Position numbers and translations under genes: made by a program. Source: Chthonomonadaceae bacterium (GTDB lineage: Bacteria > Armatimonadota > Chthonomonadetes > Chthonomonadales > Chthonomonadaceae). Taken from it: a stretch of 64,000 nt of DNA. The stretch spans positions 13,233-77,232 of the forward strand of contig DASRCN010000067.1 of assembly GCA_035653075.1 (NCBI GenBank), written 5' to 3'. Below are positions 33,901 through 64,000 of the stretch, piece by piece. Under the pieces are notes generated by a model. It searched no databases, was not told the origin of the DNA, and saw nothing but the letters and a program-made list of their open reading frames with translations. How positions within the stretch are numbered: position 1 is the first letter of the stretch; each line of letters opens with the position of its first letter.

Positions 33901-34090
33901 AGCGTTATGACCTCCGGACCTCCAGCCCATTCTGGAGGTTCTCTTCCATTATACGCCTTGCTTTCGTAGCTTGCAATCTATTTCTTAACACATAACGTGT
34001 TAAATTCGTCACTGGTTGCATAAAATGCGAGGACGCTCAATCTGCGCCCGTTCAATCTTTGAGTTGCCTCCGTTTGCCTGTCGGCGCGGA

Positions 34091-34453: not shown

Positions 34454-37400
34454 ATGAGTCATGACGAGCTCCCGCCGGACTCGGCGCCGGCCCGTCCCCT
34501 GGGGGACAGCGCCGCGGAGTCCAGGCCGGAAGCCTCTGCGCCGGAGACGCCACCTGCCGCGCCCGCGCGCCGTCGTCGCGGAAGGACGGCGGGGTCTGCC
34601 GCCGCCTCCCATCCCGCTCCCCCCGTTTCCGAACCACCCATTTCCGAGACACCCAAGCCGCGGCGCCGTCGCAAGGCGGCGGCGCCGGAAGAGGCCGCTG
34701 CGCCGCCGGTCGTAGAGAGCCGCGCACCTGCACAGGCGCCGGAGCCGGAAGCGCCCTCCCGGCGCCCGCGCGGCGGGCGCCGTACCTCCGGCAAGCAGCC
34801 GGAACAGGCGGCTGCGCCGCTGATAGAGAACGCCGCTCCAGCGCCGGAGACACCGGCCTCGAAAGGCCGCCGCGGCCGGCGCCGCAAAGCGGAGGCCGCC
34901 CCGGCTGCCGAAGCCGCTGTGGAGGCCATCTCCCCGATGCCCGAGACGCTTCCGTCGGCGCCTCCGGAAGAGGCGACACCTCCGGCCAAAACGCCGCGCC
35001 GCCGTCGTGGGCGCAAAGGAGCCGCGGAGAGCGCAACACCGGTCGAAGCCGTCTCCGCAGAGCTGGCCGCCGAGGCGATCTCCCCGCACGTCGAGCCGGC
35101 TCCGGAAGCGGAGCGTCCGGCAGGACGGCGCTCGCGCCGCCGTCGACCCGCCCGGGAGGCCGCGCCAGCGGCAGAGGCCCCGACTGCACTCCGACAAACG
35201 GAGCTGGGGCCGGCCTGGGAGACGGGTGAGCCGATGGCCTCCACCCCTGTGGAAGCCGCTACTCCCGCTGTCAAAGAGCCCTCGCGCCGTAGGCGGCGCG
35301 GAGAGCGCGCCCGCCGCGCCGAAGAGACCGTGGAAGCGCGGGCGCCGGAAGGCGAGGAGATCGAAGAGCGCATCGACCGCTCGGTCGGCGCGCACCTCCT
35401 CTCTCGCCACGGGATGCCCGAAATCCATATCGACGGCAAGCCTTTTCCGCCCATCCTGTTTTTCGGGAACATGGAGAGCGCGTCCAGCGCGCAGCGTGTC
35501 CTCTCGGAAGTGCGCCGCGCCGCCCGCGCCGGAGTCCACCTGCACTCGACTCTCATCGAGCTGCCCTGTCCGCTCACCGAAGCGACCGACGCCCTCGACA
35601 TCATCGACGACCGCCTGCGCGAGATCCTGGAAGCCGACCCGGAAGGCTACGTCATGCCGCGCCTGCTCTTTGTCCCCAGCCGCGGCTGGCGGCGCGAGTA
35701 CCCGACTGAGATCGCCACGTATGCCGACGGCACCACCGGCGATCCCTCCATCACCAGCGAGCGATTCTGGCAGGAGGCGGAGCGATCTCTGGTCGCCCTG
35801 ATCGAGCACCTGAGGATGTCCGAGTGGGGCCAGCGGGTCTTTGCCTTCCACCTGGAGCGCGGGGAGTGGTTCCAGCCGATGAGCACGGGCTACGACCGCA
35901 GCATGGCCAACCGCGAGGCGTTTCGAGACTGGCTGCGCGAGAGGTATAAGCACAACCTCGTCTCCCTGCGCGCCGCCTGGTACGACGGCAGCGTCCAGTT
36001 CCATACCGCCGAGATCCCCGCGATGCCCGCCAAGCCGAACCCGCAGCAGGCGTTCTACGAGCCGCGGCGGGAGCGACGCATCATCGATTTCCACGAGTTC
36101 ACCGCCGAGAGCACGGCCCGGCGGCTGGTCCAGTTGGCGAAAGTGGTCAAGAAGGCCACCAACAACACGGCGCTGGTATCGGTCTGCTACGGCTACACCT
36201 TCGAGTTCGGCCATCCCTTCAGCGGGCACCTGGCGCTGAACCTGTTGCTCGCCGCGCAGGCGATCAACCTGATCTGCGGCCCGCCCTCCTATCGCGACCG
36301 CAAACCCGGCGGCGCGGCCTCCTATCCTGCCCCAGTCGACTCGCTGCCGCTGCACGGCAAGCTGTGGCTGTCGGAAGACGATACCAAGACCTATCTGTCT
36401 CCTCCGAACCAGGACCCGGAAGACTTCAATCCACGCCTGAGCGACCGCTTCCTGACCGAGCAGGCGCAGGCGCGCGCCTTCGGAAAGGCGCTGGTGCATG
36501 AGGCCGGCATCAGTTGGATGGACCTGTGGGGCGAAGGCTGGCTCGACGGCGAGGAGATCTGGAACCGCCTGGTCGGCTATACGCAGACCTATGCAGCCTG
36601 GATGAAGCACCGGGAGCGAGCGCAGCCGCCCGAGGTGGTGGCGCTGATCGGGGAGAAGAGCCTGCTGCACATCCAGCGCGGCGAGGCCTTCTTCCGCAAG
36701 CTCACCAACGGCCTGCGCGAGGTGCTGCAGCGTGCCGGGGTCCACTTCGGCCTCTATCTTCAGAGCGACCTGCTGGCCAGGGATTTCCCGACCGACGCCA
36801 AGCTCTATCTCTTCCTGACGCCCTTTCGCATGCCGTCAGAACAGCGCGCGGCCATCAAAGAGAAGCTGCATCGCGGCGGCAAGACGCTCGTCTGGCTCTA
36901 TGCGCCCGGCGCCTGTGAGGAGCGGCCCGTCGCCGCGACCGGCATGGAGGAGGGCGTGACCGACGCCATCGGAATCGCGCTGCGGCAGCAGGAATGGAAT
37001 TCGGAGATCGGCTCGCGCATCATCGAGCCGTATCATACGATCACCGAGCGGCTGCCCAGCCGTGAGATCGGCGTGCGGGAGCGCCTGAACCCCTCCTTCT
37101 ACGTGGATGATTCGGACGCGATCATGCTGGCGGAATATCAGGGCTCGGGCTTGCCATCCCTGGCGGCCCGCAACTTCGGAACGTGGCAGTCGGTCTTCGT
37201 GGGCGAGCCCACCTTGCCGCTGGAGCTGCTGCGCGGCATCTGCCGCTATGCCGGCGTTCACGTCTGGACGCCGCAGGGCGATGACGTGGTGGAGATCGGC
37301 AACGGCTGGGTCATGATCCACGCCGCCCGCGACGGTCAGCGGACGCTGCAGTTGCCGGAGGTGACCGGACTCTACGACCTGACCGAGCGGCATTGGGTGG

Positions 37401-37942
37401 GCGGCGCAACGCGGGAGCATCGCTTTTTCCTGCGGGCCGGCGCGACGCGCCTCTTTGCCGTCGGCCCCACCGAAGAGCTGGTGCGGCGCGGCCTGCCGGA
37501 CATCCCGGCGCACGGCAAGGATCGCGCGCGCGCCGTCCTCGAACCGCCCAAAGAGCGTGAAGCGCCCCGCGAAATCCACGCGGACGAGGCGGTCCCGCCC
37601 CCTTCGCTGCGAGAGGATCTGGAGACGCTGGAGGCCATCCTGAAGATGGATGTAAGCCAGTTGGAGGACCTGGAGACGAACGGAGCGGAGATGTTCGAGG
37701 GCAGTAGGATCGAAGCGTCCGGGATTGAGGCGGCCGAGCCTCAGACGGAAACGCCGGGCGAGGTGACTGGAAACGGCCGCCGTCGCCGCCGGCGGGGCGG
37801 GCGCGGGCATGGGCGGCGCCGGCAGGGAAATGCCTCGGAGCTTGCCGAGGGGGCCGGATTGGAAATGAGCGCGCCTCCTACGCCGGAAGGTACGCCCTTC
37901 GACCCGGTCCACGAAGCGCCGCCGGACGGCTCGGAGGAGTAG
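34454..37942 (+). CDS. Large (1163 aa) protein: roughly 310-aa Arg/Pro/Ala-rich disordered N-terminal region with repeated RRRRGR(K) motifs, central GH42-like (beta-galactosidase-fold) domain, and a C-terminal poly-Arg tail
   Basis: Start chosen at ATG 34454 with AGGAGA RBS (the ORF track extends further upstream). Central region ...AFHLERGEWFQP...GYDRSMANREAFRDWLRERYKHNLVSLRAAWYDGSVQF... parallels the GH42 block (HIDNEYG...AFREWLKxKYGTxEALNxAWGTxFWS). N-terminus has at least 6 RRRRG-type motifs interspersed with PAPE/AAPA repeats. C-terminus has GNGRRRRRRGGRGHGRRRQG. Confidence 0.7.
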   Translation: MSHDELPPDSAPARPLGDSAAESRPEASAPETPPAAPARRRRGRTAGSAAASHPAPPVSEPPISETPKPRRRRKAAAPEEAAAPPVVESRAPAQAPEPEAPSRRPRGGRRTSGKQPEQAAAPLIENAAPAPETPASKGRRGRRRKAEAAPAAEAAVEAISPMPETLPSAPPEEATPPAKTPRRRRGRKGAAESATPVEAVSAELAAEAISPHVEPAPEAERPAGRRSRRRRPAREAAPAAEAPTALRQTELGPAWETGEPMASTPVEAATPAVKEPSRRRRRGERARRAEETVEARAPEGEEIEERIDRSVGAHLLSRHGMPEIHIDGKPFPPILFFGNMESASSAQRVLSEVRRAARAGVHLHSTLIELPCPLTEATDALDIIDDRLREILEADPEGYVMPRLLFVPSRGWRREYPTEIATYADGTTGDPSITSERFWQEAERSLVALIEHLRMSEWGQRVFAFHLERGEWFQPMSTGYDRSMANREAFRDWLRERYKHNLVSLRAAWYDGSVQFHTAEIPAMPAKPNPQQAFYEPRRERRIIDFHEFTAESTARRLVQLAKVVKKATNNTALVSVCYGYTFEFGHPFSGHLALNLLLAAQAINLICGPPSYRDRKPGGAASYPAPVDSLPLHGKLWLSEDDTKTYLSPPNQDPEDFNPRLSDRFLTEQAQARAFGKALVHEAGISWMDLWGEGWLDGEEIWNRLVGYTQTYAAWMKHRERAQPPEVVALIGEKSLLHIQRGEAFFRKLTNGLREVLQRAGVHFGLYLQSDLLARDFPTDAKLYLFLTPFRMPSEQRAAIKEKLHRGGKTLVWLYAPGACEERPVAATGMEEGVTDAIGIALRQQEWNSEIGSRIIEPYHTITERLPSREIGVRERLNPSFYVDDSDAIMLAEYQGSGLPSLAARNFGTWQSVFVGEPTLPLELLRGICRYAGVHVWTPQGDDVVEIGNGWVMIHAARDGQRTLQLPEVTGLYDLTERHWVGGATREHRFFLRAGATRLFAVGPTEELVRRGLPDIPAHGKDRARAVLEPPKEREAPREIHADEAVPPPSLREDLETLEAILKMDVSQLEDLETNGAEMFEGSRIEASGIEAAEPQTETPGEVTGNGRRRRRRGGRGHGRRRQGNASELAEGAGLEMSAPPTPEGTPFDPVHEAPPDGSEE

Positions 37943-39387: not shown

Positions 39388-39841
39388 ATCCAAATCGATC
39401 CTTTCTTCGCGGCCCGACCTCGCTCTGCGTTGAGTGGAGGCAGCTTCGGGCTGGAAAGTTCCTAATGGGCGCGCTGCCGGAAGAGCATGGCCCTCCTGCA
39501 GAACGGCGTCGTTCCTGATGCGCAAGCTTCGGTCTGCGTTCTGCCGTCGCCGGCAAATGCGGCGACAAACAAAAACCCCTTCTGCGTTGCAGAAGAGGTC
39601 GTAACGGCGGGTTAAAGGACGGTCTTCACGTAAAGGGACCGTGTCCTTGCCTTACGCTCTCTTATCTTGCAGTTGGCAGAATGTGCGACTGCCCGGATTT
39701 AGCACCTGCCCGGCCTCCTGGAAAAAGGCGGGTGGTTGTTGTGGTGTCGTCGGGCCGGTTCCCTCGACCACTCTCGATAAGAAGCTTCGCTATACGGTTG
39801 TCAGCGAAAGAGTATCATATTCCCTGTAGGAATGTCAATAT

Positions 39842-45241: not shown

Positions 45242-45557
45242 GGCACGATCCGAAAATGTTACTTTTTGATACCCTAGGATATGGAAAACCCCAGGATAAA
45301 GCAAAGAGCGCCGGATCGGCCTGGATCCGGCGCGTAGGACAGCGGGTAGGCTTGTCTTAGCTTCTATTATGGTCCTTCACACGCAGGGCATTCCCCGTAA
45401 ACCTACCAGGTTGATCGCCGGGCGGCTCAGGCAAAATAAATTTTTCGGGATCCTCCGCCAAAATACCGTCTTCTGGCACGCTTTATGCAGAGACCGGTAA
45501 TGATACTGTCCAGACCCAGGGATGGAACGCCGCCTTTTCAGGACGAAAGGAGATCTC

Positions 45558-45779
45558 ATGCGCCCGATCGACGATCGCTTGCCTGCCACGAGACAGGCGG
45601 AAGAGGAGCATGCCACGCAGCAAAACCTCGACTCAACGCATTCCAGGCTGGAGGAGCAGCGCTACCTGGCCGATGTCATGGAGGCGCTGGAGGCGGACCG
45701 GCTTTCGGAAGAGGAGCGAACGCATCTTAAAAGAGTCTTGATACGCTGCTTCGGCGAGGCCGTTCGCGGGGGGGTGTGA
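45558..45779 (+). CDS. Small hypothetical protein (73 aa)
   Basis: AAGGAGA RBS 6 nt upstream of ATG 45558. No family recognised. GC codon bias acceptable. Confidence 0.3.
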   Translation: MRPIDDRLPATRQAEEEHATQQNLDSTHSRLEEQRYLADVMEALEADRLSEEERTHLKRVLIRCFGEAVRGGV

Positions 45780-45813
45780 CGAATTTCACAGTCAAGATGT
45801 GACGAAATTCTCT
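45775..45813 (+). promoter_or_regulatory. Tandem CRP/FNR-type sites (TGTGACGAATTTCACA; TGTGACGAAATTCTCT) upstream of a TAGAAT -10 element
   Basis: First site is a perfect TGTGA-N6-TCACA palindrome. Site centres are about 65 and 42 bp upstream of the inferred start near 45848. Confidence 0.35.
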
Positions 45814-45847
45814 TCCCAACGTCTGCATTTTCTGTTAGAATGAACAT

Positions 45848-45940
45848 GCGAGTAGAGAATGCGAGTAAGAGTGAGACAAATTGATTGCAGAGTAAGCGAG
45901 GGAGGCGATTTCGCCTCCCTCTCCTTCTTTCTATCGCTTT
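45848..45940 (+). ncRNA. Candidate small RNA (about 90 nt) between a TAGAAT -10 element and a rho-independent terminator
   Basis: -10 box at 45836-45841. Terminator GAGGGAGGCG-ATTT-CGCCTCCCTC then TCCTTCTTTCTATCGCTTTT at 45898-45940. Body contains three GCGAGTA(A/G)GAG-like direct repeats. Alternatively this is simply the 3'UTR and terminator of the 45558 ORF. Confidence 0.25.
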
Positions 45941-46114
45941 TGGCACGCTTCTTGCAGGAAGACAGGTTGCAGTACTAAAAAAGCCGTGTCTTGCCGGGGA
46001 GAGCATTCCTGCGTCCTTGCTGCCTCTTGACCGACTGCAAGCCTACCAACCGCAGGAGGTAAAGCCATGCAAAGACGAAGGACGCCTGCCTGACAGACAC
46101 GGCTTTTGCACTGC

Positions 46115-53791: not shown

Positions 53792-56032
53792 CTAGGGCTT
53801 GACGGTCAGGGTGTGCTGACCGGACCCGGAGATCACCGCCCGTACCACGCCGCCACTGCCGAACTGAGCGGCAAACGGCTGGCCGCCGTCGATCTGGATC
53901 GTCCAGCTTAAGGTCGGATCCAGATCCAACAAGTACGCGTCCGTTTCCCTGGCGGTGATGGTAAAGCTCAGGCTGTAGCTGCTCTCCACCAGCCGGCTCG
54001 CCGCGTTGTTGGAGAAGACCGCCAGGGTCGCCGCCTCCTTGCCGGGGCAGACCAGCGCGCCGCTGATCCCGTTGCCATCTACCCGGCCGATCGCCGGCGT
54101 TGAGTTATCGTAGATACAGAGGGCATGAAGGAGGAAATGCCAGGCATTGTCATCGCTGAATGTCTCTCTGACCTGGTACTTGCGCTCTGTATTCGGAACG
54201 CCTCCATAATTGAAATAGAGATAGTTTCCCAGGCTATCTGTCGCCGACTCGTTGACGATGGAAAAGGCAGTCTGCGTGGGACTGGGCGCCAGCTCCTGGG
54301 ACACCACATACTGCCCGCCCGCCGTTTTCCAGGCGATCGCGCCATTCTGGATGGCCGGGGCGATGGGCATGTGCAAGGTCCATTGCAGCGGTCCGAAGGG
54401 AAAGACGCTCGTCTCGGCGTTCTGGATATTGGCGGCATCCCAGGATCGCCAATCATTCAGGAAGGAACCCGCCAGCATGGGATTGGTGGCGTTGACCCGA
54501 TCGGCCACGATCAGCACGTCGGCCGTCTTATTGACCCCATGCACGTAGAGGACGCTGCCCGTCTGCTCGGAGATGTAGGCAGGGGGCGGAGTATAGTAGT
54601 TGGAATTATAGGGCGATCCCGAAGTCTCGCTGCGCTGGTAGCAGTAGTTGGAGCCGTCCTCCCAGGCGGTAGCGGCATGCTGCCACATGACCCCTAGCCC
54701 ACCGGCCACGACCGTGTTGTTGCCGTTCTCATCGCAGCCCATGCCGCCATACGTGATCGGATGCGTCAGCGCCCATTCGCCTTTCCGGTACAGACGGAAG
54801 CTTCTAAAGACTTCATCCTGCTGCGTGTGATCGACCAGACTCATAGGGTCGGTGTTCACGCCGAAGACACTGTCGCCGGTCGTATCCCAGCCGCTTCTCC
54901 AGACGGAGAGGCCGCTGCCGTTGACGGGCCATGTCTCCGAGCGGAAATCGGTGGCGGGCGCAAAGGGATCCATGCAAAGATACATGCGGCAGGCGTAGCT
55001 TCGGTAGCCATAGAGACTGGCCCAGTAGTTGACCAGCCATTGCAGTTCGGCGCCAACGCCGGTGCCTTCCAACTGGCGGGCCAGCATCGTCATCGTGCAG
55101 AGGGTATCGGCGATGTGGAGCTGATGTGGGAATCCATCGTCTCCGAACTGGAACTCGTCGATCAGGGAGTTGGTCAGGATTCCGATTGCGGCCTGGCCGA
55201 TCTGGGGCAGGGCTGCGGTGACTTCCGGGAAATGGTCCTGGCCGGTGATCTCATTGATGGCCAGGGTATAGAGCAAGAGGGGTTCGAGGGAAGCGTTGAA
55301 ATACTGCGTGCCCTCCAGCCAGACGCCTCCCGAAGTGGGGGTCGGGCAGGTGCGGGTCACATAGTCGTAGATGGCGTTGCGGGCGCTGCCGCGAGGCCCC
55401 AGGGTGGCATCGTAGTCCAGGCCGCCATACGGCTTCCAGGCGCCACTGTCGTCCCAGGTGCCGGAAAGCATCGTACTGGCCTGGGGATTGTCGGGCGCGG
55501 AGATGAGCGACCACAGGCACAACCCCAGGTATTCGCCAATCAGCCCGTTCGCGTTTCCACTGAAAAAACCGGTTCGCGCCCTCTGCGCGATGCCGTTCAT
55601 CCAGGCGATGTAGAGCTGCTGGTCCGATGAGGAGAGCGTGGAGTAGAGAATGCGGAAGCAGATGGCGTACAGCCCGAAGTAGATGCGGATGCTATTGTTA
55701 TTGTTTCCACAGGGAAGCGTTCTTGCCTCAGCATACGGTTTGATGGCCGACCAGGCGTTTTGAGCATATTTGGGATTGCCGGTGTAGAGATAGGCGTACG
55801 CAGCGGCTGTCCCCTGGTTCTCGATCCCGGTCTGGCCCGTCGAATCGGAAGCGTACTTCAGCAGATAAGAAAACCACACGTTGTTGGTGGCGACCATCTT
55901 CTGGCGTATCGCCTGATCCTGCGCGGTATTGAACGGCATGGGCACCTGCTGGCCCTGGCTGATGGTGGGGAAAATCGAGAGTAGTATTGCTATAATAGCA
56001 AATAGTACCCTGACTCCTTTTTTCTGTTTCAT
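53792..56032 (-). CDS. Secreted hypothetical protein, (alpha/alpha)-toroid plus beta-sandwich, tentatively heparinase II/III-like polysaccharide lyase
   Basis: Signal peptide. Start at MKQKKG with AGGAGAGGG RBS. W/Y-rich catalytic-domain-like N-half and beta-rich C-half. Function is inferred from fold-type features only. Confidence 0.6.
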   Translation of the reverse strand: MKQKKGVRVLFAIIAILLSIFPTISQGQQVPMPFNTAQDQAIRQKMVATNNVWFSYLLKYASDSTGQTGIENQGTAAAYAYLYTGNPKYAQNAWSAIKPYAEARTLPCGNNNNSIRIYFGLYAICFRILYSTLSSSDQQLYIAWMNGIAQRARTGFFSGNANGLIGEYLGLCLWSLISAPDNPQASTMLSGTWDDSGAWKPYGGLDYDATLGPRGSARNAIYDYVTRTCPTPTSGGVWLEGTQYFNASLEPLLLYTLAINEITGQDHFPEVTAALPQIGQAAIGILTNSLIDEFQFGDDGFPHQLHIADTLCTMTMLARQLEGTGVGAELQWLVNYWASLYGYRSYACRMYLCMDPFAPATDFRSETWPVNGSGLSVWRSGWDTTGDSVFGVNTDPMSLVDHTQQDEVFRSFRLYRKGEWALTHPITYGGMGCDENGNNTVVAGGLGVMWQHAATAWEDGSNYCYQRSETSGSPYNSNYYTPPPAYISEQTGSVLYVHGVNKTADVLIVADRVNATNPMLAGSFLNDWRSWDAANIQNAETSVFPFGPLQWTLHMPIAPAIQNGAIAWKTAGGQYVVSQELAPSPTQTAFSIVNESATDSLGNYLYFNYGGVPNTERKYQVRETFSDDNAWHFLLHALCIYDNSTPAIGRVDGNGISGALVCPGKEAATLAVFSNNAASRLVESSYSLSFTITARETDAYLLDLDPTLSWTIQIDGGQPFAAQFGSGGVVRAVISGSGQHTLTVKP

Positions 56033-56056
56033 CCGTGTAACCCTCTCCTTGCTCAC

Positions 56057-57446: not shown

Positions 57447-57523
57447 TTTTCTTTCCTTACCTTCGTGCCGCAATATTTGCCTTTAGGATGCTCGATAGTG
57501 AAAGTACTTTATAGCACAGCCCA

Positions 57524-57552
57524 ATTGTAGAGGTTGACCTCTCGATTGTCAA
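57524..57552 (-). promoter_or_regulatory. Sigma70 promoter TTGACA-17-TACAAT for comEA (minus strand)
   Basis: Reverse complement of 57524-57552 reads TTGACAatcgagaggtcaacctcTACAAT. Confidence 0.4.
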
Positions 57553-57557
57553 GAGGG

Positions 57558-57573
57558 TGTGATGAATTTCACG
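57558..57573. promoter_or_regulatory. CRP/FNR-like half-palindromic site TGTGATGAATTTCACG in the comEA / TIR-STAND divergent region
   Basis: Resembles the TGTGA-N6-TCACA consensus with one mismatch. Highly similar to the site at 45775-45790. Confidence 0.3.
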
Positions 57574-57583
57574 CTCGAAAGTC

Positions 57584-57612
57584 TTGACGAGCAGACTTGA
57601 ACTTGCTATAGT
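57584..57612 (+). promoter_or_regulatory. Sigma70 promoter TTGACG-17-TATAGT for the TIR-STAND gene
   Basis: Counted directly. About 35-nt leader to ATG 57648. Confidence 0.45.
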
Positions 57613-57647
57613 ATCAGCCATGGAATTGCTGCCGAAGGTGAGCTCAT

Positions 57648-60461
57648 ATGGCTGCAGAAATCTTTATCAGCTATGCCCGCAAAGACAACCGAAAGGTCTT
57701 GCCACTGGTGCGGCATCTGCGAGACGCAGGTATTTCCGTCTGGTTGGATACCAGCGACATTGATGCCGGCGTGCAATGGCGACCGGAAATTGAAAAGGGC
57801 ATAAAAGATTGCCAAGTTGTGCTCTTGATGCTTTCAGCTTCCTCGGCTGCTTCGGAAGAGGTAGGTAAGGAGATTGTTTTTGCTCAGAAACTGGAAAAGC
57901 CCATCGTTCCCCTGGTTCTGGAGCCGGTGGCACTTCCTCCTGCTCTTCTCTTTCTTGAAGATATTCAGCAGGTGATACTGTTCGGAGAGGGACTGCAACA
58001 GAGATGGCAGGCATTGGGGAGCTCTCTGGTTAGATTGGGCGTGAAGCTAGAACGATCTCTTGAGGGCTTCGACCAGAATTTGCCTCTTGCCTCTACTTCT
58101 TTCATCGGACGTCAGAAGGAGATGCAGGAGATCGGGGAACTGCTCTTGCAGGCGCGGCTGCTGACGCTGACAGGAGCAGGCGGATGCGGCAAGACGAGGC
58201 TGGCTCTGGAGATAACAAAAGCGAACCTGGGCGCTTATCCAGACGGTGTATGGTTGGTAGAACTGGCCGATCTTTCCGATCCTTCCTTAGTACCCCAGCA
58301 ACTGGCGACTGTCCTGGGATTGAGAGAAGAGCCAGGCAGAACGCTAACAGAGACACTACGGGACTATCTGCAACCCAGGACCGTACTTCTGTTGCTGGAT
58401 AACTGCGAGCATCTGATTACAGCCTGTGCGGAGTTGGCAGATAGACTGCTGAGAGGTTGTCCGCAACTGGGCATCTTTGCCACGAGCCGGGAAGCATTGG
58501 GAGTGCCGGGAGAGCAGATCTATCGGACGCCCCCTCTGTTCGCCCCATATCCTGCTCACCTGCCCAAAAATGAGAAAGACCTCGCTGTAATCGTCTCTGG
58601 ATATGATGCTCCGCGTCTGTTCGTGGAGCGAGCCGGGTTGAAGAAGCCAGGCTTCGCGCTGACAACCCAGAACGCGGCTGTCGTGGCTTCGGTGTGTTAT
58701 CGTCTGGACGGCATTCCCCTGGCTGTCGAGCTGGCCGCCGCTAGAGTCAGTGTCCTCTCGGTCGAAGAGATCAGCATGCATTTAGAGCATCGGTTCCGCT
58801 TGCTCATAAGCGGTAGTAGTACTGTTCTGCCCAGACAGCAGACCTTGCAAGCAACTCTGGATTGGAGCTATGAGCTTTTGACCGAGCAAGAGAGGCTGTT
58901 GCTTTCCAGGCTGTGTGTGTTTGCCGGAGGATGGACCCTGGAAGCCGCTGAGGCCGTTTGCGCAGAGGAGCAGGATTCTGTCCTGGCTATGCTCTCTTCC
59001 GGCAAGCGGGTCGAACGAGAAGGGATGATGGACATCCTGGCCTCTCTTGTAGAAAAGTCGCTGGTAATTGTCGAGGAGCGGGAAGGCAAGAGTCGCTATC
59101 GCATGCTGGAAACCATTCGAGAGTATGCATCTGAGAGACTAAGAGAGAAAAGAGAGGAAAAGCTCTGGCACGGTCGTCATCTAAATTTCTTTTTGAATTT
59201 GGCCGAAGAGGCGGAGACTAAACTGACAGGAGCCGAGCAAGCCGAGTGGCTAGAGAGGTTGCAGGAGGAGAATGAGAACCTGCAGGCTGCATTGAACTGT
59301 TGCACGATAGATAAGGAGAAGGTCGAACCATGTGTGCAGCTTTGGGGAGCCATCTGGCGGTATTGGTATATCCGTGGCTGCTATAGTGAGGGCCGAGAGC
59401 AGCTGCAAGCCGCATTATCTCAAGATGCGAGGAATTTTCGCTCACAAGCATGGGCTAAGGCCTTTTATGGATTAGGCAGCTTGATATTGATGCAAGGAGA
59501 CTATGCCGCAGCGCGCTCTCAGTTTGAGGAAAGCCTGGCGATATCAAGGGAATTAGGAGATAAGAGATATATGGCCGCCTCGCTTATCGGTCTTGGGAAT
59601 GTGGCCATGGATCAAGGTGATTATGCAGCCGGACAGGCCTTTTATGAAGAGTGTCTGGCATTATTCAGGGAACTAGGAGATAAGAGGGGTATCTCTGTTG
59701 TGCTCAACAACTTGGGCAATGTGGCCTATCATCAAAGCAACTATAAAGCCGACCGAGCGCTACAAGAGGAAAGTCTGGAGATACAAAGGGAGTTAGGTGA
59801 TAAGCGGAGCATTGCCATCTCGCTCAATAATCTTGGAAATGTGGCATATCATCAAGGCGACTATACAGCCGCACATGCGTTCTATGAAGAATGTTTGGCG
59901 TTATTTCGGCAGCTAGGAGACAAGTGGGGCGTTTCCATCGCATTAAACGGTGCTGGCGGTGTGGCTAAAGCCTGCGGCGACTATGGAGCGGCAGGCGCTC
60001 TATACGAGGAAAGTCTTTCGTTAAGCAAAGAGACAGGAGGGAAGAGCGGAGTTGCTAGCGCCCTCAGTAACCTGGGAGAGGTGGCCTATCGGGAAGGCGA
60101 CTATGCCAAGGCAAGTTGCTTTTATAAGGAGAGTCTAGTTATCAGACGAAAAATAGAGGAAAAACCTGGCATTGCCGAATCGCTGAGAGACATGGCTGAT
60201 CTTGCGGCAGGGCAGGGACAATTCGAGATGGCCGCCAGACTATGGGCTGCAGCAGAAGTCTTGCGTGAAACGATTGGCTCGCCCTTGCCACCGAAGGAGA
60301 AAGAAGAGGTTGACCGTAAGGTGGCGACAGCACGAGCGTCTTTGGGAGAAGAGGCGTTTGCGAGTGCCTGGGAACAGGGACAGGCCATGACCTTCGAGCA
60401 GGCCATTGAATACGCCCTTCAGGAGAATCCGCAAGAAAGCAAAGGACGTCCTGCTGAATAG
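57648..60461 (+). CDS. TIR-domain / NB-ARC (STAND NTPase) / TPR-repeat protein, NLR-like
   Basis: N-terminal TIR (AEIFISYARKDN...ISVWLDTSDIDAGVQW...VVLLMLSASSAASEEVGKEI). NB-ARC: Walker A LTGAGGCGKTRLA, Walker B LLLLDNCEHL, RNBS-B-like FATSRE, GxP motif LDGIPLAVELAAARV. At least 8 TPR-like repeats with the LGDKRGISVVLNNLGNVAYHQGDY core. GC about 50% against about 63% genome background. Confidence 0.85.
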   Translation: MAAEIFISYARKDNRKVLPLVRHLRDAGISVWLDTSDIDAGVQWRPEIEKGIKDCQVVLLMLSASSAASEEVGKEIVFAQKLEKPIVPLVLEPVALPPALLFLEDIQQVILFGEGLQQRWQALGSSLVRLGVKLERSLEGFDQNLPLASTSFIGRQKEMQEIGELLLQARLLTLTGAGGCGKTRLALEITKANLGAYPDGVWLVELADLSDPSLVPQQLATVLGLREEPGRTLTETLRDYLQPRTVLLLLDNCEHLITACAELADRLLRGCPQLGIFATSREALGVPGEQIYRTPPLFAPYPAHLPKNEKDLAVIVSGYDAPRLFVERAGLKKPGFALTTQNAAVVASVCYRLDGIPLAVELAAARVSVLSVEEISMHLEHRFRLLISGSSTVLPRQQTLQATLDWSYELLTEQERLLLSRLCVFAGGWTLEAAEAVCAEEQDSVLAMLSSGKRVEREGMMDILASLVEKSLVIVEEREGKSRYRMLETIREYASERLREKREEKLWHGRHLNFFLNLAEEAETKLTGAEQAEWLERLQEENENLQAALNCCTIDKEKVEPCVQLWGAIWRYWYIRGCYSEGREQLQAALSQDARNFRSQAWAKAFYGLGSLILMQGDYAAARSQFEESLAISRELGDKRYMAASLIGLGNVAMDQGDYAAGQAFYEECLALFRELGDKRGISVVLNNLGNVAYHQSNYKADRALQEESLEIQRELGDKRSIAISLNNLGNVAYHQGDYTAAHAFYEECLALFRQLGDKWGVSIALNGAGGVAKACGDYGAAGALYEESLSLSKETGGKSGVASALSNLGEVAYREGDYAKASCFYKESLVIRRKIEEKPGIAESLRDMADLAAGQGQFEMAARLWAAAEVLRETIGSPLPPKEKEEVDRKVATARASLGEEAFASAWEQGQAMTFEQAIEYALQENPQESKGRPAE

Positions 60462-61723: not shown

Positions 61724-63154
61724 TTATCGGGTCGGCTGCGCGAACGCGACCGGACTCCAGTCGTCCTGGCGATTCATGGCACGCACCCCGAAATAGTAAT
61801 CGTCTTTGGAAAGTCCGTGCAGCGTGTAGCGCGTCACGTTGCCGACCCAGAGCGAGCGTTCCCAGGACGGAGCGGTCGTCGATCGCCACTCGACGTAGTA
61901 GCCGGCCAGATCCGGCTCGGTATTGGGCGCCCACTTCAACTCCGTGTCGTTGGTCAGCTCGCGCGTGACGATCCCGACCTCCTGGGGCGTCGCTGGCGCC
62001 AGCGCCAGCATCGCCAGGGCCGCGGCGTTGACGCGCGTCACCTGCGCCAGGTAATCGAAGTCCAGGAACTGCGGCAGGTCGCCGTAGAGCACGCCACCTA
62101 CCGAGCGCACATTCTGATGCTGGTGCCGGAAGTCCTCGTTCGGCTCGGTAAAGCGCACGGCCGGATAGCCGCGCTCCTGGAAGGGGATCTGATCGCCGCC
62201 GCGCAGGAAGCGGTCCCGCCGGTAGACCAGGTTCACGTCAAAATGATGCACGTAGCGCGCGCCGACCCCCTGGATAAAGCGGGCCAGCTCCCGCGAGGGC
62301 GAATCGTTCTCGCCGCCGACGGCGCGCAGGATGCGCAGGCCCGTAGGCGTCTCTTCCGAGGGTACGCCTTCGGAGAAGACGCGCACAGAATGATTATCGT
62401 GGATGCCGTTGGCGCCGTGCGAGCTGCCGATGATGTCGTTATTGAGCATCCCCATGATCCGCCAGCCCTTCTCCTTCGCCCGGTCCGCGAAGTAGGTCGA
62501 GCCGTACAGACCTTGCTCCTCGCCCGCCACGCAAAGGAACACGATGGAGGCTCCATAATGGTATTGGGACATCACCCGCGCCATCTCCAGCACGGCGGCC
62601 ACGCCGGAGCCATCGTCGTCCGCGCCGGGCGCCTCCGCTGTGGGATCGTCGGCATTGCTGGCTCTGGAATCGTAGTGCGCGCTGACCACGTACACTCGCT
62701 TGTTGAGGTTGGGCAGGTCGCCGGGCAGGATGGCGGCGATGTTGGTGATGCGCACCGGATGCGGGATGCGCGGGCCGGCCGGCTGCTCGAAGGTCTGCAT
62801 CTCCACCTCCAGCCGCCCCCCGGACTGCGCCCGAATCTGCTGGAACTGGCTCAGGATCCAGTCCCGCGCCGCGCCGATGCCGCGCCGTGGATCGTCTTGT
62901 ACCGACAGCGTGTTGCGCGTATCGAAGGAGACCAGCTTGCGGATGGCGGCCTGGAGATAGTAGGAGTCGATCTCGCGGACGATGCGCCGGATGTCCGTCT
63001 GGGTCGCCTCCAGCATCGGACGCGGCGCCGTTTTCGACCTGGGGGGGCGCGCGACCACCCGGCCCTGCTGTCGGCCCTGCGCATACACGGCAAGGGAGAC
63101 GGCGCAGAGCCCAGCCACTCCAAACAGAGAAAGGCGTCGTTTTAAGTCTTTCAT
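61724..63154 (-). CDS. M28-family zinc aminopeptidase with C-terminal fibronectin type III-like domain, secreted
   Basis: Signal peptide. Metal-ligand blocks ...VVSAHYDS..., ...DDDGSGVAAVLEMARV..., ...GEEQGLYGS.... C-terminal FN3-like ...YYVEWRSTTAPSWERSLWVGNVTRYTLHGLSKDDYYFGVRAMN.... Confidence 0.85.
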   Translation of the reverse strand: MKDLKRRLSLFGVAGLCAVSLAVYAQGRQQGRVVARPPRSKTAPRPMLEATQTDIRRIVREIDSYYLQAAIRKLVSFDTRNTLSVQDDPRRGIGAARDWILSQFQQIRAQSGGRLEVEMQTFEQPAGPRIPHPVRITNIAAILPGDLPNLNKRVYVVSAHYDSRASNADDPTAEAPGADDDGSGVAAVLEMARVMSQYHYGASIVFLCVAGEEQGLYGSTYFADRAKEKGWRIMGMLNNDIIGSSHGANGIHDNHSVRVFSEGVPSEETPTGLRILRAVGGENDSPSRELARFIQGVGARYVHHFDVNLVYRRDRFLRGGDQIPFQERGYPAVRFTEPNEDFRHQHQNVRSVGGVLYGDLPQFLDFDYLAQVTRVNAAALAMLALAPATPQEVGIVTRELTNDTELKWAPNTEPDLAGYYVEWRSTTAPSWERSLWVGNVTRYTLHGLSKDDYYFGVRAMNRQDDWSPVAFAQPTR

Positions 63155-63702: not shown

Positions 63703-64000
63703 CAGGTCAGGGGGAATTCGGTGATGCGCAGATGGGCGCTGCCGTAGGGGATCAGCGTGATCGGTTCCAGAGGCGTATCGGTAGAAACGGGACTTTGGGG
63801 CAGGGGGCCGGCAGAGTTCAGCTCCAGGGTCCACTGTGGCAGCCGTTGACCTTGAGTTGTCAGGACGACCGGCGGGGCCTTCGGGTCGAAAGGAATGGGG
63901 CTGACCGGCGTTTCCTGGATAGAGAAGGAGGGCGCGGCGGGGTCAAGCGCCAGGCCGTAGTTCCAGGGGGTCGTGGGAAGAATTTCCCAATCGGCGCGGG
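63703..64000 (-). CDS. Partial CDS (C-terminal about 99 aa only; N-terminus beyond window), beta-sandwich tail possibly of a glycoside hydrolase
   Basis: Manual translation of the minus strand: ...RADWEILPTTPWNYGLALDPAAPSFSIQETPVSPIPFDPKAPPVVLTTQGQRLPQWTLELNSAGPLPQSPVSTDTPLEPITLIPYGSAHLRITEFPLT*. Strong GC3 codon bias, open to the window edge. Confidence 0.45.

What the first reader, a model, noticed from the sequence alone, without database searches (positions are those of the whole stretch)
57520..60461. TIR-NB-ARC-TPR STAND NTPase (bacterial NLR-like) in a low-GC segment, with its own consensus promoter
A 937-aa protein combines an N-terminal TIR domain (candidate NAD+-hydrolase effector), a complete NB-ARC module (Walker A, hhhhDN Walker B, GxP/GLPL motif) and at least 8 near-identical TPR units (LGDKRxISxxLNNLGNVAYHQGDY). 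This is the architecture of conflict/immune STAND sensors (Avs-, bNACHT- and plant TNL-like). The gene has about 50% GC in a roughly 63% GC genome. Its promoter (TTGACG-17-TATAGT) sits next to a CRP-like TGTGA-N6-TCACG site shared with the divergent comEA promoter. The highly regular TPR array suggests recent repeat expansion or diversification.
Basis: partly seen in the sequence, partly recalled or inferred. Interest (0 to 1): 0.8.

Follow-up and report, generated by a model that had tools for sequence, protein, structure and literature searches.

The report
Bacterial TIR–NB-ARC–TPR switch protein
This is a real, intact gene for a bacterial NLR-like switch protein that carries a TIR (NAD+-cleaving) output domain; the architecture is already known, and its closest relatives use the same sensor body with cyclase or DNA-binding outputs, so it is a well-supported but fairly ordinary new member of a known class.

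Summary
The ORF at 57648..60461 (+) encodes a 937-aa protein, identical to HZT42719.1 from a Chthonomonadaceae MAG, where it is annotated only as "tetratricopeptide repeat protein". The domain calls hold. The TIR_2 match has E=1.5e-23, and Glu75 aligns with SARM1 E642 and SPARTA E77 and is invariant in 40 relatives. The NOD has Walker A and B, TSR and GxP motifs, and its profile hits AfsR (1e-18), Apaf-1 and Roq1. Seven 40-residue TPR hairpins follow.

Some claims were overstated. The repeats are 42–75% identical, not near-identical, and nothing shows recent expansion. The NB-ARC "MHD" His-Asp is Leu-Glu across the family. No Avs or bNACHT model matches.

The NOD-TPR body belongs to a large family whose N-termini are mostly class III cyclases, then SARP/BTAD, TIR, kinase or HTH. 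The query's NOD sits in a clade (bootstrap 89) of cyclase and BTAD proteins, so the TIR arrived by domain swap. Gene GC3 is 55% against 71–85% in the neighbours and matches the contig of its nearest relative, which suggests horizontal acquisition. The neighbours are housekeeping genes.

Most likely mechanism: a ligand binds the TPR, the NOD oligomerises, and clustered TIRs cleave NAD+. A defence role is inferred, not shown. Verdict: new member of a known kind, modest interest.

The parts
57558..57573 (.). Palindromic CRP/FNR-like site TGTGATGAATTTCACG in the comEA / TIR-STAND divergent intergenic region
   Evidence: A near-identical site lies at 45775. There are 5 sites with <=3 mismatches in the window against 0.73 expected, and 0 of 100 shuffles reach 5. 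Function not shown.
57584..57612 (+). Sigma-70-like promoter TTGACG-17-TATAGT (10 of 12 matches, TG before the -10 hexamer), about 35 nt upstream of the start codon
   Evidence: This is a consensus match only. An AAGGTGA Shine-Dalgarno sequence lies 6 nt before the ATG.
57524..57552 (-). Divergent sigma-70-like promoter TTGACA-17-TACAAT (11 of 12 matches), facing comEA
   Evidence: The comEA gene call starts at 57443 (MKPLSRSQ).
57648..60461 (+). Complete ORF of 937 aa plus stop: TIR-NOD-TPR STAND protein, identical to HZT42719.1
57648..58037 (+). TIR domain (aa 1-130), flavodoxin-like beta-alpha fold
   Evidence: Pfam TIR_2 E=1.5e-23. AF2 model of aa 1-350 has pLDDT 93.4. Foldseek matches SPARTA TIR-APAZ at rmsd 2.0-2.5 A and 27% identity, plus SARM1 TIR and RPP1.
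57870..57872 (+). Codon of Glu75, the predicted catalytic glutamate of the TIR NADase site (VGK-E-IVFA)
   Evidence: It aligns with SARM1 'VHKEIV' (E642) and SPARTA TIR-APAZ 'VLKELA' (E77); the residue numbers were counted from the printed alignments. It is invariant in 40 TIR-bearing relatives.
58038..58112 (+). Linker and conserved NOD entry motif NLPxxxTSFIGR (aa 131-155). This is the junction where homology to the cyclase/BTAD relatives begins.
   Evidence: identity to P0002 is 22% for aa 1-135 and 64% for aa 146-330.
58113..58547 (+). Nucleotide-binding domain (aa 156-300): Walker A GAGGCGKT (58173-58196), Walker B LLLLDNCEH (58386-58412), sensor-1 TSR (within 58476-58493)
58581..58808 (+). 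Helical domain 1 (aa 312-387), with the GxP motif LDGIPLAVELAAAR at 58704-58745
58830..59147 (+). Winged-helix domain (aa 395-500; Pfam HTH_77, weak). RYRMLETIREYA at 59094-59129 occupies the MHD position but reads Leu487-Glu488.
59157..59429 (+). Helical arm / HD2-like connector (aa 504-594), including one degenerate TPR-like hairpin
   Evidence: helices 504-590.
59430..60269 (+). TPR sensor (aa 595-874): seven 40-residue helix-hairpin units, six recognisably related by sequence
60270..60458 (+). Conserved C-terminal helical cap (aa 875-937; family motif ...PLPPxERxxYDRxVAxARxALGExAF...)

Best explanation
The gene encodes a one-protein NLR-like (STAND) switch. At rest it is a closed monomer.

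Proposed sequence of events:
- The C-terminal TPR superhelix binds a still unknown ligand, either a protein or peptide or a small molecule.
- Binding releases autoinhibition of the NB-ARC-type NOD.
- The NOD exchanges ADP for ATP and oligomerises head to tail.
- Oligomerisation brings the N-terminal TIR domains together, forming composite NADase sites that use Glu75.
- NAD+ is cleaved.

The gene is monocistronic and no receptor or effector gene sits beside it. The most likely output is therefore NAD+ depletion itself, giving growth arrest or abortive-infection-type self-sacrifice, as part of a conflict or defence function.

The gene entered this Chthonomonadaceae genome horizontally from a lineage of about 54% GC. 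Its TIR was grafted by domain swap onto a NOD-TPR body whose nearest relatives carry class III cyclase or SARP/BTAD outputs.

Shown here: the domain identities, motif conservation, fold matches, the family relationships that cross-cut output type, and the composition anomaly.

Inferred, not shown: ligand binding, oligomerisation, NADase activity, the cellular outcome and the defence role.
For: TIR:
- TIR_2 E=1.5e-23.
- Glu75 aligns with the catalytic Glu of SARM1 and SPARTA and is invariant in 40 relatives, together with W32, S69 and A79.
- The confident model (pLDDT 93.4) matches the SPARTA TIR at about 2 A rmsd, the SARM1 TIR, and the TNL RPP1 over TIR plus NB-ARC.

NOD:
- Walker A, Walker B, TSR and GxP are invariant or nearly so in 113 relatives.
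- The family profile hits AfsR at 1.1e-18, Apaf-1 at 6e-9, Roq1 at 2.6e-7 and PH0952 at 2.8e-5.
- The full-length model has pLDDT above 90 over the NOD and TPR. It matches 6MFV, ZAR1, Apaf-1, NRC3 and Roq1.

Single-gene unit:
- Divergent comEA upstream and a convergent ankyrin gene downstream.

Literature:
- TIR2 and guanylate cyclase are described as 'all-in-one' effector domains on bacterial NB-ARC/TPR NLR-like proteins (bioRxiv 10.1101/2020.01.06.895854).
- TIRs inside Avs proteins and stand-alone TIR genes are treated as likely NAD+-depleting effectors (bioRxiv 10.64898/2025.12.03.692087).
- STAND activation through ADP/ATP exchange and multimerisation, with TPR-NBD autoinhibition, is described in PMC6468293.

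Domain swap:
- The query NOD lies in a 9-member clade (bootstrap 89) with 5 cyclase and 3 BTAD proteins.

Acquisition:
- Gene GC3 is 55% against 71-85% in neighbours.
- The nearest relative's contig is natively 54% GC with GC3 57-58%.

Defence-type neighbours of some TIR-bearing relatives:
- An MmeI-type R-M gene in L167.
- BrnT/CopG, Uma2 and two further TIR genes in L169.
Against: - No known defence gene lies within 5 kb. The neighbours are comEA, an ankyrin-repeat gene, an M28 peptidase, a beta-lactamase-family gene and a GNAT. The AbiL system in the window is about 27 kb away.
- PADLOC recognises no Avs, bNACHT or other whole-system model.
- The family's dominant outputs (cyclase in about 82 of 120 top hits, BTAD in about 19, kinase in 5, HTH in 2, by my count) are classical signalling outputs. 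The closest solved relative, AfsR, is a transcription factor.
- The TPR sensor is a short, regular, consensus-like superhelix whose best PDB sequence hit is an engineered TPR at 1.7e-45. It is unlike the large irregular lobes with which Avs proteins envelop phage proteins (PMC13581612).
- The MHD His that stabilises the ADP-bound off state in plant NLRs, Apaf-1 and AfsR is Leu here, so details of the switch may differ.
- The family is almost absent from viral contigs, which is neutral evidence.
- No biochemical or genetic data exist.
Confidence: 0.5

Rival explanations
1. It is a non-immune signalling switch. The protein belongs to a housekeeping signal-transduction family in which one sensed cue, endogenous or environmental, is wired to different outputs: cAMP/cGMP, SARP transcription, phosphorylation. 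Here the output is a TIR that makes an NAD+-derived messenger or tunes NAD+ levels, with no role in defence against phages or other mobile elements.
For: - Most close relatives carry class III cyclase, BTAD/SARP, kinase or HTH N-termini.
- The closest solved NOD is the antibiotic regulator AfsR.
- The genomic context is housekeeping.
- There is no PADLOC system hit.
- The sensor is a short, regular TPR like those of AfsR, PH0952 and LGN.
- Defence and non-defence STAND clades are reported to be interspersed (PMC13581612).
Against: - Known bacterial TIR domains with the catalytic Glu act in conflict systems (established knowledge).
- The gene looks horizontally acquired. Its TIR paralog sits beside an IS1595 transposase in a low-GC patch.
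- Some TIR-bearing relatives lie next to R-M or toxin-antitoxin genes and other TIR genes.
- No candidate receptor for a TIR-made signal is linked to the gene.
Confidence: 0.27
2. It is a signal-producing TIR with an unlinked effector. Once activated, the TIR makes a cADPR-type or other ADPR-derived signal, as in Thoeris or plant TNLs. That signal switches on an effector encoded elsewhere in the genome, rather than killing by NAD+ depletion.
For: - The TIR fold and catalytic Glu are shared with signal-producing TIRs, and ThsB-type models give weak domain-level hits.
- The best whole-model match is the TNL RPP1, whose TIRs make signals.
Against: - No ThsA-like, SLOG, Macro, SAVED or caspase-type partner lies in the operon or nearby.
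- The closest TIR matches by sequence and structure are the NAD+-depleting SPARTA and SARM1 TIRs.
- The Trp four residues before the catalytic Glu (SARM1 'DWVHKE') is Glu71 here.
- Stand-alone TIR genes are treated as likely depleters in the Thoeris survey.
Confidence: 0.12
3. The TIR is a non-enzymatic adaptor. It only mediates TIR-TIR protein contacts, as in animal TLR/MyD88 signalling, recruiting another TIR protein.
For: Foldseek also matches the MyD88, TLR1 and Hydra TRR-2 TIR domains. A second TIR-NOD-TPR paralog exists in the same MAG.
Against: The catalytic Glu75 and several other residues (F6, S8, Y9, W32, D34, S69) are invariant or nearly invariant in 40 relatives. That pattern is expected for an active site, not only an interface.
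Confidence: 0.06
4. It is an AfsR/SARP-type transcription regulator that has been mistaken for an immune protein.
For: There is NOD and TPR homology to AfsR. Many relatives have BTAD/Trans_reg_C domains.
Against: This protein has no BTAD, Trans_reg_C, LuxR or other credible DNA-binding domain. Its N-terminus is a TIR and its C-terminus is a helical cap conserved across all output types.
Confidence: 0.02

Closest known systems
Bacterial 'all-in-one' NLR-like proteins with NB-ARC + TPR and a TIR_2 effector domain (Koonin & Aravind 2002; Dyrka et al. 2020, bioRxiv 10.1101/2020.01.06.895854)
   Same: The three-part architecture is the same: TIR_2, NB-ARC-type NOD, TPR. The same effector alternatives (TIR2, guanylate cyclase) occur on the same chassis. 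Occurrence in soil bacteria with large genomes also matches.
   Different: Nothing essential differs; this is the class it belongs to. Those surveys stress repeats of 80-90% internal identity, and here the repeats are only 42-75% identical. The host is an Armatimonadota (Chthonomonadaceae) MAG, not an actinobacterium or cyanobacterium.
AfsR (Streptomyces SARP-NOD-TPR regulator; PDB 8K60/8JKE)
   Same: It is the closest solved relative of the NOD: profile E=1.1e-18 over the whole NOD, with shared NLPxxxxxFxGR entry motif, P-loop, LLDN Walker B, PLA(I/V) GxP motif and RYR...R..YA WHD motif. A TPR sensor follows in both.
   Different: AfsR has an N-terminal SARP DNA-binding output and keeps the His-Asp switch (RYRFHD). 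The query has a TIR output and Leu-Glu at that position.
Class III cyclase-NOD-TPR and BTAD-NOD-TPR proteins of the same family (e.g. P0002, P0057 = HZT42808.1, P0005)
   Same: They are 60-66% identical over the NOD (aa 141-560) and 46-61% over the TPR and cap. They share a NOD clade with the query at bootstrap 89.
   Different: The N-terminal output domain is unrelated to the query's. Homology begins at about residue 136-146.
Plant TIR-NLRs (RPP1, ROQ1)
   Same: RPP1 is the best PDB match of the TIR+NBD model, aligned over both domains in 414 columns. Roq1 is hit by the NOD profile at 2.6e-7. The logic is the same: NOD oligomerisation assembles the TIR NADase sites.
   Different: The sensor is TPR, not LRR plus C-JID. 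Sequence identity is about 16%. MHD is replaced by LLE. No EDS1-type downstream pathway is present.
SPARTA TIR-APAZ and SARM1 TIR domains
   Same: They are the closest TIR domains by sequence (E about 5e-5) and by structure (rmsd 2-3.6 A, 21-27% identity), with an aligned catalytic Glu. Both deplete NAD+ on oligomerisation.
   Different: The TIR is activated by a different scaffold: a short Argonaute with guide and target, or ARM-SAM octamers, instead of a STAND NOD.
Avs (antiviral STAND) and bNACHT defence proteins
   Same: The overall logic is the same: effector, STAND NTPase and a C-terminal helical-repeat sensor in a single gene. TIR is among the known Avs effector domains.
   Different: No Avs or bNACHT PADLOC model matches, and no NACHT module is present. 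The NOD clade is different (AfsR/Apaf-1 side). The sensor is short and regular, whereas Avs sensors are large, irregular and bilobed. There is no defence-island context here.
PH0952 (archaeal STAND with TPR sensor; PDB 6MFV)
   Same: It is the top full-length structural match (Foldseek E=4e-14, 778 columns), with the same NOD-arm-TPR layout. It is the model for double autoinhibition by arm-NBD and sensor-NBD contacts.
   Different: Identity is 16%. PH0952 has an ArsR-type DNA-binding output and is archaeal.

Membership tests
TIR domain (Pfam TIR_2, PF13676), enzymatic NADase type | Profile match above the curated threshold | tested here: met
   84 bits against a cut-off of 28, E=1.5e-23, aa 5-114. 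PF01582 TIR also matches at 29 bits against 21.3.
TIR domain (Pfam TIR_2, PF13676), enzymatic NADase type | Flavodoxin-like beta-alpha fold superimposable on solved TIRs | tested here: met
   The model has pLDDT 93.4. It matches SPARTA TIR at rmsd 2.0-2.5 A, SARM1 TIR at TM 0.71-0.77 normalised to the target, and Hydra TRR-2 at TM 0.87-0.89.
TIR domain (Pfam TIR_2, PF13676), enzymatic NADase type | Catalytic glutamate in helix alpha-C | tested here: met
   E75 aligns with SARM1 E642 and SPARTA E77. It is invariant in 40 of 40 TIR-bearing relatives.
TIR domain (Pfam TIR_2, PF13676), enzymatic NADase type | NAD+ cleavage activity | not testable with these tools
   Needs biochemistry.
NB-ARC / AP-ATPase clade of STAND NTPases | Walker A GxxxxGK[ST] and Walker B hhhhD[DN] | tested here: met
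   GAGGCGKT at 176-183 and LLLLDN at 247-252. G178, G179, G181, K182, D251 and N252 are invariant in 113 sequences.
NB-ARC / AP-ATPase clade of STAND NTPases | Sensor-1 Arg (TxR / RNBS-B) and the GxP (GLPL) motif in HD1 | tested here: met
   T279-S280-R281 are nearly invariant. D354, G355, I356, P357, L358 and A359 are invariant or nearly so.
NB-ARC / AP-ATPase clade of STAND NTPases | MHD (His-Asp) motif at the start of the last WHD helix | tested here: not met
   The family motif RYR(L/M)LE aligns with AfsR RYRFHD and Apaf-1 RYYLHD. The query has L487-E488, and both are at least 90% conserved in the family.
NB-ARC / AP-ATPase clade of STAND NTPases | Profile or fold similarity to bona fide NB-ARC proteins over NBD-HD1-WHD | tested here: met
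   Pfam NB-ARC is only just above its cut-off and partial (24.8 against 23.5 bits). The family profile hits AfsR at 1e-18, Apaf-1 at 6e-9, Roq1 at 3e-7 and ZAR1 at 5e-3. Foldseek hits ZAR1, Apaf-1, NRC3, Roq1 and RPP1.
Avs (AVAST) antiviral STAND | Match to an Avs family model | tested here: not met
   PADLOC gives only TPR and TIR domain-level hits, with no Avs model.
Avs (AVAST) antiviral STAND | Association with defence islands | tested here: inconclusive
   The query locus has none within 5 kb. The paralog P0120 lies by an IS1595 and a low-GC patch. One other TIR-bearing locus lies beside an MmeI-type R-M gene, and a second lies in a BrnT/CopG toxin-antitoxin, Uma2 and TIR cluster. A third is fragmentary and has no defence genes. 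The sample is too small.
Avs (AVAST) antiviral STAND | Large sensor that binds a conserved phage protein; anti-phage activity | not testable with these tools
   The sensor here is about 280 aa of regular 40-aa repeats, unlike the described Avs sensors. Binding and protection need experiments.
bNACHT (bacterial NACHT NLR-related) | NACHT-type NTPase module (PF05729) | tested here: not met
   The query has no PF05729 hit among the 25 families listed of 29 found. The NOD profile hits AfsR, Apaf-1 and plant NLRs, not NACHT proteins.
SARP/AfsR-type transcription activators | N-terminal SARP DNA-binding module (Trans_reg_C + BTAD) | tested here: not met
   Neither domain is present in the query. NCBIfam AfsR scores 71.8 bits against a cut-off of 1430, over the NOD C-terminal part and TPR only.
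Thoeris (ThsB TIR + ThsA-type effector) | TIR gene in an operon with a signal-activated effector | tested here: not met
   The ThsB models give only weak domain hits. The gene is monocistronic and no effector gene is adjacent.

The most novel reading that the evidence does not exclude
The NOD-TPR body may be a general-purpose signalling chassis that has dispensed with the canonical MHD histidine lock (Leu-Glu across the family). It freely exchanges outputs: cyclase, SARP, kinase, HTH, TIR.

On that reading, this TIR version would not be an abortive-infection device. It would be a regulated NAD+-cleaving or NAD+-derived second-messenger generator, responding to the same endogenous or environmental cue as its cyclase sisters.

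That would make it a bacterial, non-immune use of a TIR-NLR. It would also be a natural example of rewiring between signalling and immunity within a single, closely related NOD clade.
Probability: 0.15. Interest if true: 0.6.

Novelty: new member of a known kind. Interest (0 to 1): 0.3.

Why it matters
If the inferred mechanism holds, this is one more bacterial relative of plant TIR-NLRs, and it gives Armatimonadota an NLR-like NAD+-cleaving switch.

The more useful point is at the level of the family. There is a very large NOD-TPR family: 123,585 cluster representatives match the TIR+NBD query at E<=1e-3, and 12,673 at E<=1e-30. Its members keep an almost invariant switch core and swap outputs between cyclase, SARP, kinase, HTH and TIR. 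Sisters 60-66% identical in the NOD differ only in output. That offers matched natural pairs for two experimental questions:
- Do 'signalling' and 'immune' STANDs sense the same kind of cue?
- How does a STAND switch work without the MHD histidine?

Neither point changes current understanding. The architecture and the effector alternatives were already described in the literature.

Tried and rejected
- **Synteny test.** I used the flanking M28 peptidase as an anchor in the species-representative genome collection. The best hits were <=60% identical and came from Acidobacteriota, Verrucomicrobiota and others, with no close relative of this MAG.
- **Metagenome scan with the TIR+NBD alignment.** The most conserved patterns were in the NBD, so all 80 loci matched only residues ~136-350. 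It gave no TIR-specific contexts. The loci were reused to build the NOD-only profile.
- **Second word-index protein search with aa 1-330.** It returned mostly short fragments and added little context.
- **First full-length AlphaFold run.** The TIR came out at pLDDT 36-58, because only 7 of the 113 rows had a TIR. This was fixed with a TIR-rich alignment.
- **Single-sequence PDB search with the NOD alone.** It found nothing significant. A profile was needed.
- **Pfam scan of aa 250-581 to identify PF25872.** It gave no hit. The name HTH_77 came from the precomputed annotation.
- **Insertion scars.** There are no convincing flanking direct or inverted repeats and no tRNA gene.
- **Viral contigs.** Only 7 weak NBD-only loci were found.
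- **First labelling of N-terminal domains for the tree.** It was wrong because the kinase seed overlapped the NOD. It was corrected.
- **Rejected readings.** A SARP-type regulator is rejected because there is no DNA-binding domain. bNACHT is rejected because there is no NACHT module. Recent TPR expansion is rejected because the repeats are only 42-75% identical.

Full report

Yes in its core. A single ORF runs from 57648 to 60461 on the plus strand and encodes 937 aa. It is preceded by an AAGGTGA ribosome-binding site.

The exact protein is already public as HZT42719.1. It is annotated only as "tetratricopeptide repeat protein" from a Chthonomonadaceae (Armatimonadota) metagenome-assembled genome.

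Pfam gives the following:
- TIR_2 at aa 5-114: E=1.5e-23, 84 bits against a cut-off of 28.
- NB-ARC: just above its cut-off and only for the N-terminal part (24.8 against 23.5 bits, profile positions 3-108 of 248). AAA_22 and nSTAND1 also match.
- TPR_12: a very strong match, E=3e-43 in five stretches.

- Walker A GAGGCGKT, aa 176-183
- Walker B LLLLDNCEH, aa 247-255
- TSR, aa 279-281
- LDGIPLAVELAAAR, aa 353-366

The composition anomaly is real. The gene is 53.0% GC against 61.8% for the window. GC3 is 54.6% against 71-85% in five neighbouring genes. Only 3.6% of equal-length windows are as low.

The promoter-like hexamers TTGACG-17-TATAGT (57584-57612, with TG before the -10) exist. So does a divergent TTGACA-17-TACAAT facing comEA, and so does the TGTGA-N6-TCACG site at 57558-57573.

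**2. What was overstated**

*The TPR array.* It is regular but not "near-identical":
- The AlphaFold model shows seven helix-hairpin units of 40 residues (aa 600-876), preceded by one degenerate hairpin and followed by a helical cap.
- By sequence, six units (aa 595-834) are recognisably related.
- The best pair is 75% identical in protein and 72% in DNA. Most pairs are 42-62% identical.
- Tandem Repeats Finder sees 2.9 copies at 66% matches.
- This does not indicate recent expansion. The bacterial and fungal NLR repeats cited as rapidly diversifying are 80-90% identical internally (bioRxiv 10.1101/2020.01.06.895854).

*The NB-ARC module.* It lacks one hallmark. A NOD-only family profile aligns the family's RYR(L/M)LE with AfsR RYRFHD and Apaf-1 RYYLHD. 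The His-Asp of the "MHD" switch is therefore Leu487-Glu488 here. Both residues are at least 90% conserved in the family.

**3. The TIR domain**

The best PDB sequence matches of aa 1-140 are the SPARTA TIR-APAZ proteins and the SARM1 TIR, at E about 5e-5 to 1e-4. In those alignments the query's VGK-E75-IVFA lies on SARM1 VHK-E-IVTA and on SPARTA VLK-E-LAVA. Counting along the printed alignments, these are SARM1 E642 and SPARTA E77. That these are the catalytic glutamates is established knowledge, not tested here.

Among 40 TIR-bearing members of this family, E75 is invariant, as are W32, S69 and A79. F6, S8, Y9 and D34 are at least 90% conserved.

With that TIR-rich alignment, AlphaFold models aa 1-350 at mean pLDDT 93.4. 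Foldseek's best PDB hits for that model are:
- the plant TIR-NLR RPP1, aligned across both TIR and NB-ARC (414 columns, E=8e-13);
- the SPARTA TIR (rmsd 2.0-2.5 A, 27% identity);
- the SARM1 TIR.

The Trp four residues before the catalytic Glu in SARM1 (DWVHKE) is Glu71 in the query.

**4. The NOD and its family**

The single NOD sequence has no significant PDB match. A profile of 38 family NODs does:

| Target | E-value |
|---|---|
| AfsR (whole NOD) | 1.1e-18 |
| Apaf-1 | 6e-9 |
| TNL Roq1 | 2.6e-7 |
| PH0952 | 2.8e-5 |
| ADR2 | 1.3e-3 |
| ZAR1 | 5.2e-3 |

The full-length model has pLDDT above 90 over the NOD and TPR. It best matches the archaeal STAND-TPR protein PH0952 (6MFV), then LGN-type TPRs, ZAR1, Apaf-1, NRC3 and Roq1. 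So the NOD lies on the Apaf-1/AfsR side of the STAND superfamily. It is neither NACHT nor one of the Avs models in PADLOC, which returns only TIR- and TPR-level hits.

The closest sequence relatives match only the C-terminal ~84% of the protein, at 45-61% identity. By my count of the precomputed Pfam lists for the 120 best hits, their N-terminal domains are:
- class III cyclase in about 82 (5 of these also carry BTAD);
- BTAD/SARP in about 19;
- TIR_2 in 7;
- protein kinase in 5;
- an XRE-type HTH in 2.

The exhaustive search with aa 1-330 found 123,585 cluster representatives at E<=1e-3 and 12,673 at E<=1e-30. Among the 269 proteins fetched up to that point, 42 have an N-terminal TIR followed by this NOD. 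The fusion is therefore common. The source names that are available point to Chthonomonadaceae, Chloroflexota, Roseiflexaceae, Ktedonobacteraceae, Rubrobacter, Gaiellaceae and others, largely from soil metagenomes.

**5. Domain swap**

Over the NOD (aa 141-560), the query is 60-66% identical to cyclase- or BTAD-bearing proteins. It is only 51-58% identical to the other TIR-bearing ones, whose TIRs are 29-49% identical to its own.

I built a bootstrapped neighbour-joining tree of 253 NODs. The query falls in a nine-member clade with bootstrap 89/100. The other eight members are five cyclase proteins and three BTAD proteins. One of the cyclase proteins is P0057 = HZT42808.1, from the same accession series and probably the same MAG.

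The MAG's other TIR paralog, P0120 = HZT43461.1, comes from the same samples. It is more distant, at 57-58% identity in the NOD.

Identity to the nearest relative, P0002, is 22% over aa 1-135 and 64-70% from aa 146 onward. The junction therefore sits just before the conserved NLPxxxTSFIGR entry motif.

Caveats: deep nodes of the tree are unsupported. The sequence sample is also biased towards hits to the query.

**6. Acquisition**

The gene's GC and GC3 (53% and 55%) are uniform across the TIR, NOD and TPR. They match the contig of its nearest relative, P0002, whose gene has GC3 57% and whose neighbouring gene has GC3 58%. They do not match the host genome.

The resident cyclase paralog is close to host composition (GC3 73% against about 80% in its neighbours). 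The TIR paralog is intermediate (GC3 64%) and lies next to a low-GC patch containing an IS1595 transposase.

This fits horizontal acquisition of an already assembled TIR-NOD-TPR gene from a lineage of about 54% GC. I found no flanking repeats, tRNA gene or integrase. I could not test presence or absence in sister genomes, because the anchor scan found no close relative.

**7. Context**

The gene is monocistronic. comEA (SLBB plus HHH domains) is divergent upstream. An ankyrin-repeat gene is convergent downstream. Then come a small ORF, an M28 peptidase, and GH127, PRAI, GFO/IDH and RIO1 genes. Upstream lie a 754-aa protein with no family match, a GNAT and a beta-lactamase-family gene. No defence gene lies within 5 kb.

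Contexts of other TIR-bearing members are mixed:
- One is preceded by an isochorismatase-family gene and an MmeI-type R-M gene (L167).
- One lies in a cluster with BrnT/CopG, Uma2, a second TIR-NOD-TPR gene and a small ThsB-like TIR (L169).
- One is fragmentary.

The family is nearly absent from viral contigs. By the two criteria used in the recent STAND survey, defence neighbours or immune-type effector domains (PMC13581612), the family as a whole looks like signalling. The TIR subset qualifies through its effector domain. That paper notes that defence and non-defence clades are interspersed.

**8. Mechanism**

The best-supported model is the generic STAND cycle, as described for MalT, PH0952 and Apaf-1 in PMC6468293:
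- The resting form is a closed, ADP-bound monomer held shut by arm-NBD and sensor-NBD contacts.
- Ligand binds to the TPR.
- The NOD opens and exchanges nucleotide.
- The protein multimerises head to tail.

Here multimerisation would cluster the TIRs into composite NADase sites, as in RPP1/ROQ1, SPARTA and SARM1.

No partner gene is linked to this gene. Its closest TIRs are NAD+ depleters, and stand-alone TIR genes are treated as likely depleters. I therefore favour NAD+ depletion as the output and a conflict or defence role, at about 0.5 confidence.

The main rival, at about 0.27, is a non-immune signalling role shared with the cyclase, SARP and kinase sisters. A signal-producing TIR with an unlinked effector (0.12), a non-enzymatic adaptor TIR (0.06) and a SARP-type regulator (0.02) are less likely.

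None of the biochemical steps is shown. What is shown is domain identity, active-site conservation, fold, family structure and composition.

**9. Promoter and CRP-like site**

The hexamers are good consensus matches, but they are only that.

TGTGAyGAATTTCAC occurs twice exactly in the window, at 45775 and 57558, against 0.22 expected. With up to three mismatches there are five sites against 0.73 expected, and 0 of 100 shuffles reach five. By my reading of the ORF lists and the sequence, the four sites I could place lie between genes; the fifth, at 63974, is too close to the end of the window to judge. It is therefore probably a real regulator-binding motif of this genome.

At 57558 it lies 5 bp from the -35 of the comEA-facing promoter and 10 bp from the -35 of the TIR gene's promoter. 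Which gene it serves cannot be decided from sequence.

**10. Novelty and verdict**

TIR2-NB-ARC-TPR "all-in-one" bacterial NLR-like proteins have already been described, with guanylate cyclase as an alternative effector on the same chassis. TIR effectors on antiviral STANDs are also known. This is a new member of a known kind.

The modestly new points are:
- the family-wide Leu-Glu in place of the MHD His-Asp that acts as the activation switch in AfsR (abstract of bioRxiv 10.64898/2026.09.02.748808);
- the clear case of output swapping within one well-supported NOD clade;
- the Armatimonadota host.

Interest: 0.3.

Noticed in passing
window 28259-30778: A second low-GC patch; the lowest-GC gene-length window, 47% GC, starts at 28201. 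It carries a confident AbiL abortive-infection pair on the minus strand: AbiLi/AAA_21 ATPase at 29342-30778 (E=6e-95) and AbiLii/RloB at 28755-29345 (E=2.5e-21). Next to them is a Uma2-family putative endonuclease at 28259-28774 on the plus strand (PADLOC PDC-S03, E=1e-22). This is the real defence islet of the window, about 27 kb from the TIR gene.
   Followed up: partly
window 33998-34013 (-), 45775-45790, 45798-45813, 57558-57573, 63974-63989: A recurrent palindromic motif, TGTGAyGAATTTCACr. There are 5 sites with <=3 mismatches against 0.73 expected by chance, and four of them lie between genes as far as I could read (the 63974 site is at the window edge). It is probably the binding site of a CRP/FNR-family regulator of this genome. 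At 45775/45798 two copies sit 23 bp apart, upstream of a TAGAAT -10-like hexamer.
   Followed up: partly
window 45470-46100: By eye there are two sigma-54-type promoter motifs: TGGCACGCTTTATGCA at about 45476-45491 and TGGCACGCTTCTTGCA at about 45942-45957. The first precedes a 73-codon ORF (45559-45780). Between them, downstream of the paired CRP-like sites, lies a strong terminator-like hairpin (GAGGGAGGCGATTTCGCCTCCCTC followed by a T-rich run, about 45898-45935). The stretch could encode a short (~85 nt) non-coding transcript. There is no Rfam hit.
   Followed up: no
window 39659-39783 (-): SAM riboswitch (RF00162): 66.8 bits against a gathering score of 44.4, E=2e-13. It is the only Rfam family found in the window.
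   Followed up: no
window 59103-59111 (codons 486-488) and family alignments A1/A3: The whole cyclase/BTAD/TIR/kinase NOD-TPR family has Leu-Glu where AfsR, Apaf-1 and plant NLRs have the His-Asp of the MHD switch. AfsR, the closest solved relative, keeps His-Asp.
   Followed up: partly
L169 (JGI 3300013772, Ga0120158_10009560) 184-8877: One 9-kb contig carries a BrnT/CopG toxin-antitoxin pair, a TIR-NOD gene apparently split from its HTH_77-TPR part (ORFs of 472 and 286 aa), a Uma2 gene, a second intact TIR-NOD-TPR gene (875 aa) and a small ThsB-like TIR protein (150 aa). This is a TIR-rich, defence-like cluster.
   Followed up: no
L167 (ENA ERZ27237513 k119_169020) 3106-10766: The TIR-NOD-TPR relative P0085 is immediately preceded, in the same orientation, by an isochorismatase-family gene; that family includes nicotinamidases, suggesting a possible NAD-salvage link. 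Further upstream is a 1022-aa MmeI-type methyltransferase/restriction gene.
   Followed up: no
L083 (ENA ERZ27279673 k141_75899) 12702-17435: Next to the TIR paralog P0120 lies a low-GC stretch (50-53% GC). It holds an unannotated 707-aa gene, an IS1595-family transposase and an SDH-type (ClpP-class) serine protease. The same contig has a 1839-aa ribonucleotide reductase interrupted by Hint/LAGLIDADG inteins.
   Followed up: no
window 61724-63154 (-) and loci L003-L082: The M28 peptidase flanking the finding has no close relative in the one-genome-per-species collection. The best matches are 52-60% identical and come from Pyrinomonadaceae, Chthoniobacterales and other phyla. This MAG's lineage is therefore poorly represented, or the peptidase is itself a transferred gene.
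   Followed up: no
window 34223-37942 (+) and 53792-56056 (-): Two large ORFs, of 1239 aa and 754 aa (the latter with a signal-peptide-like N-terminus), have no Pfam or PADLOC match at E<=1e-3.
   Followed up: no
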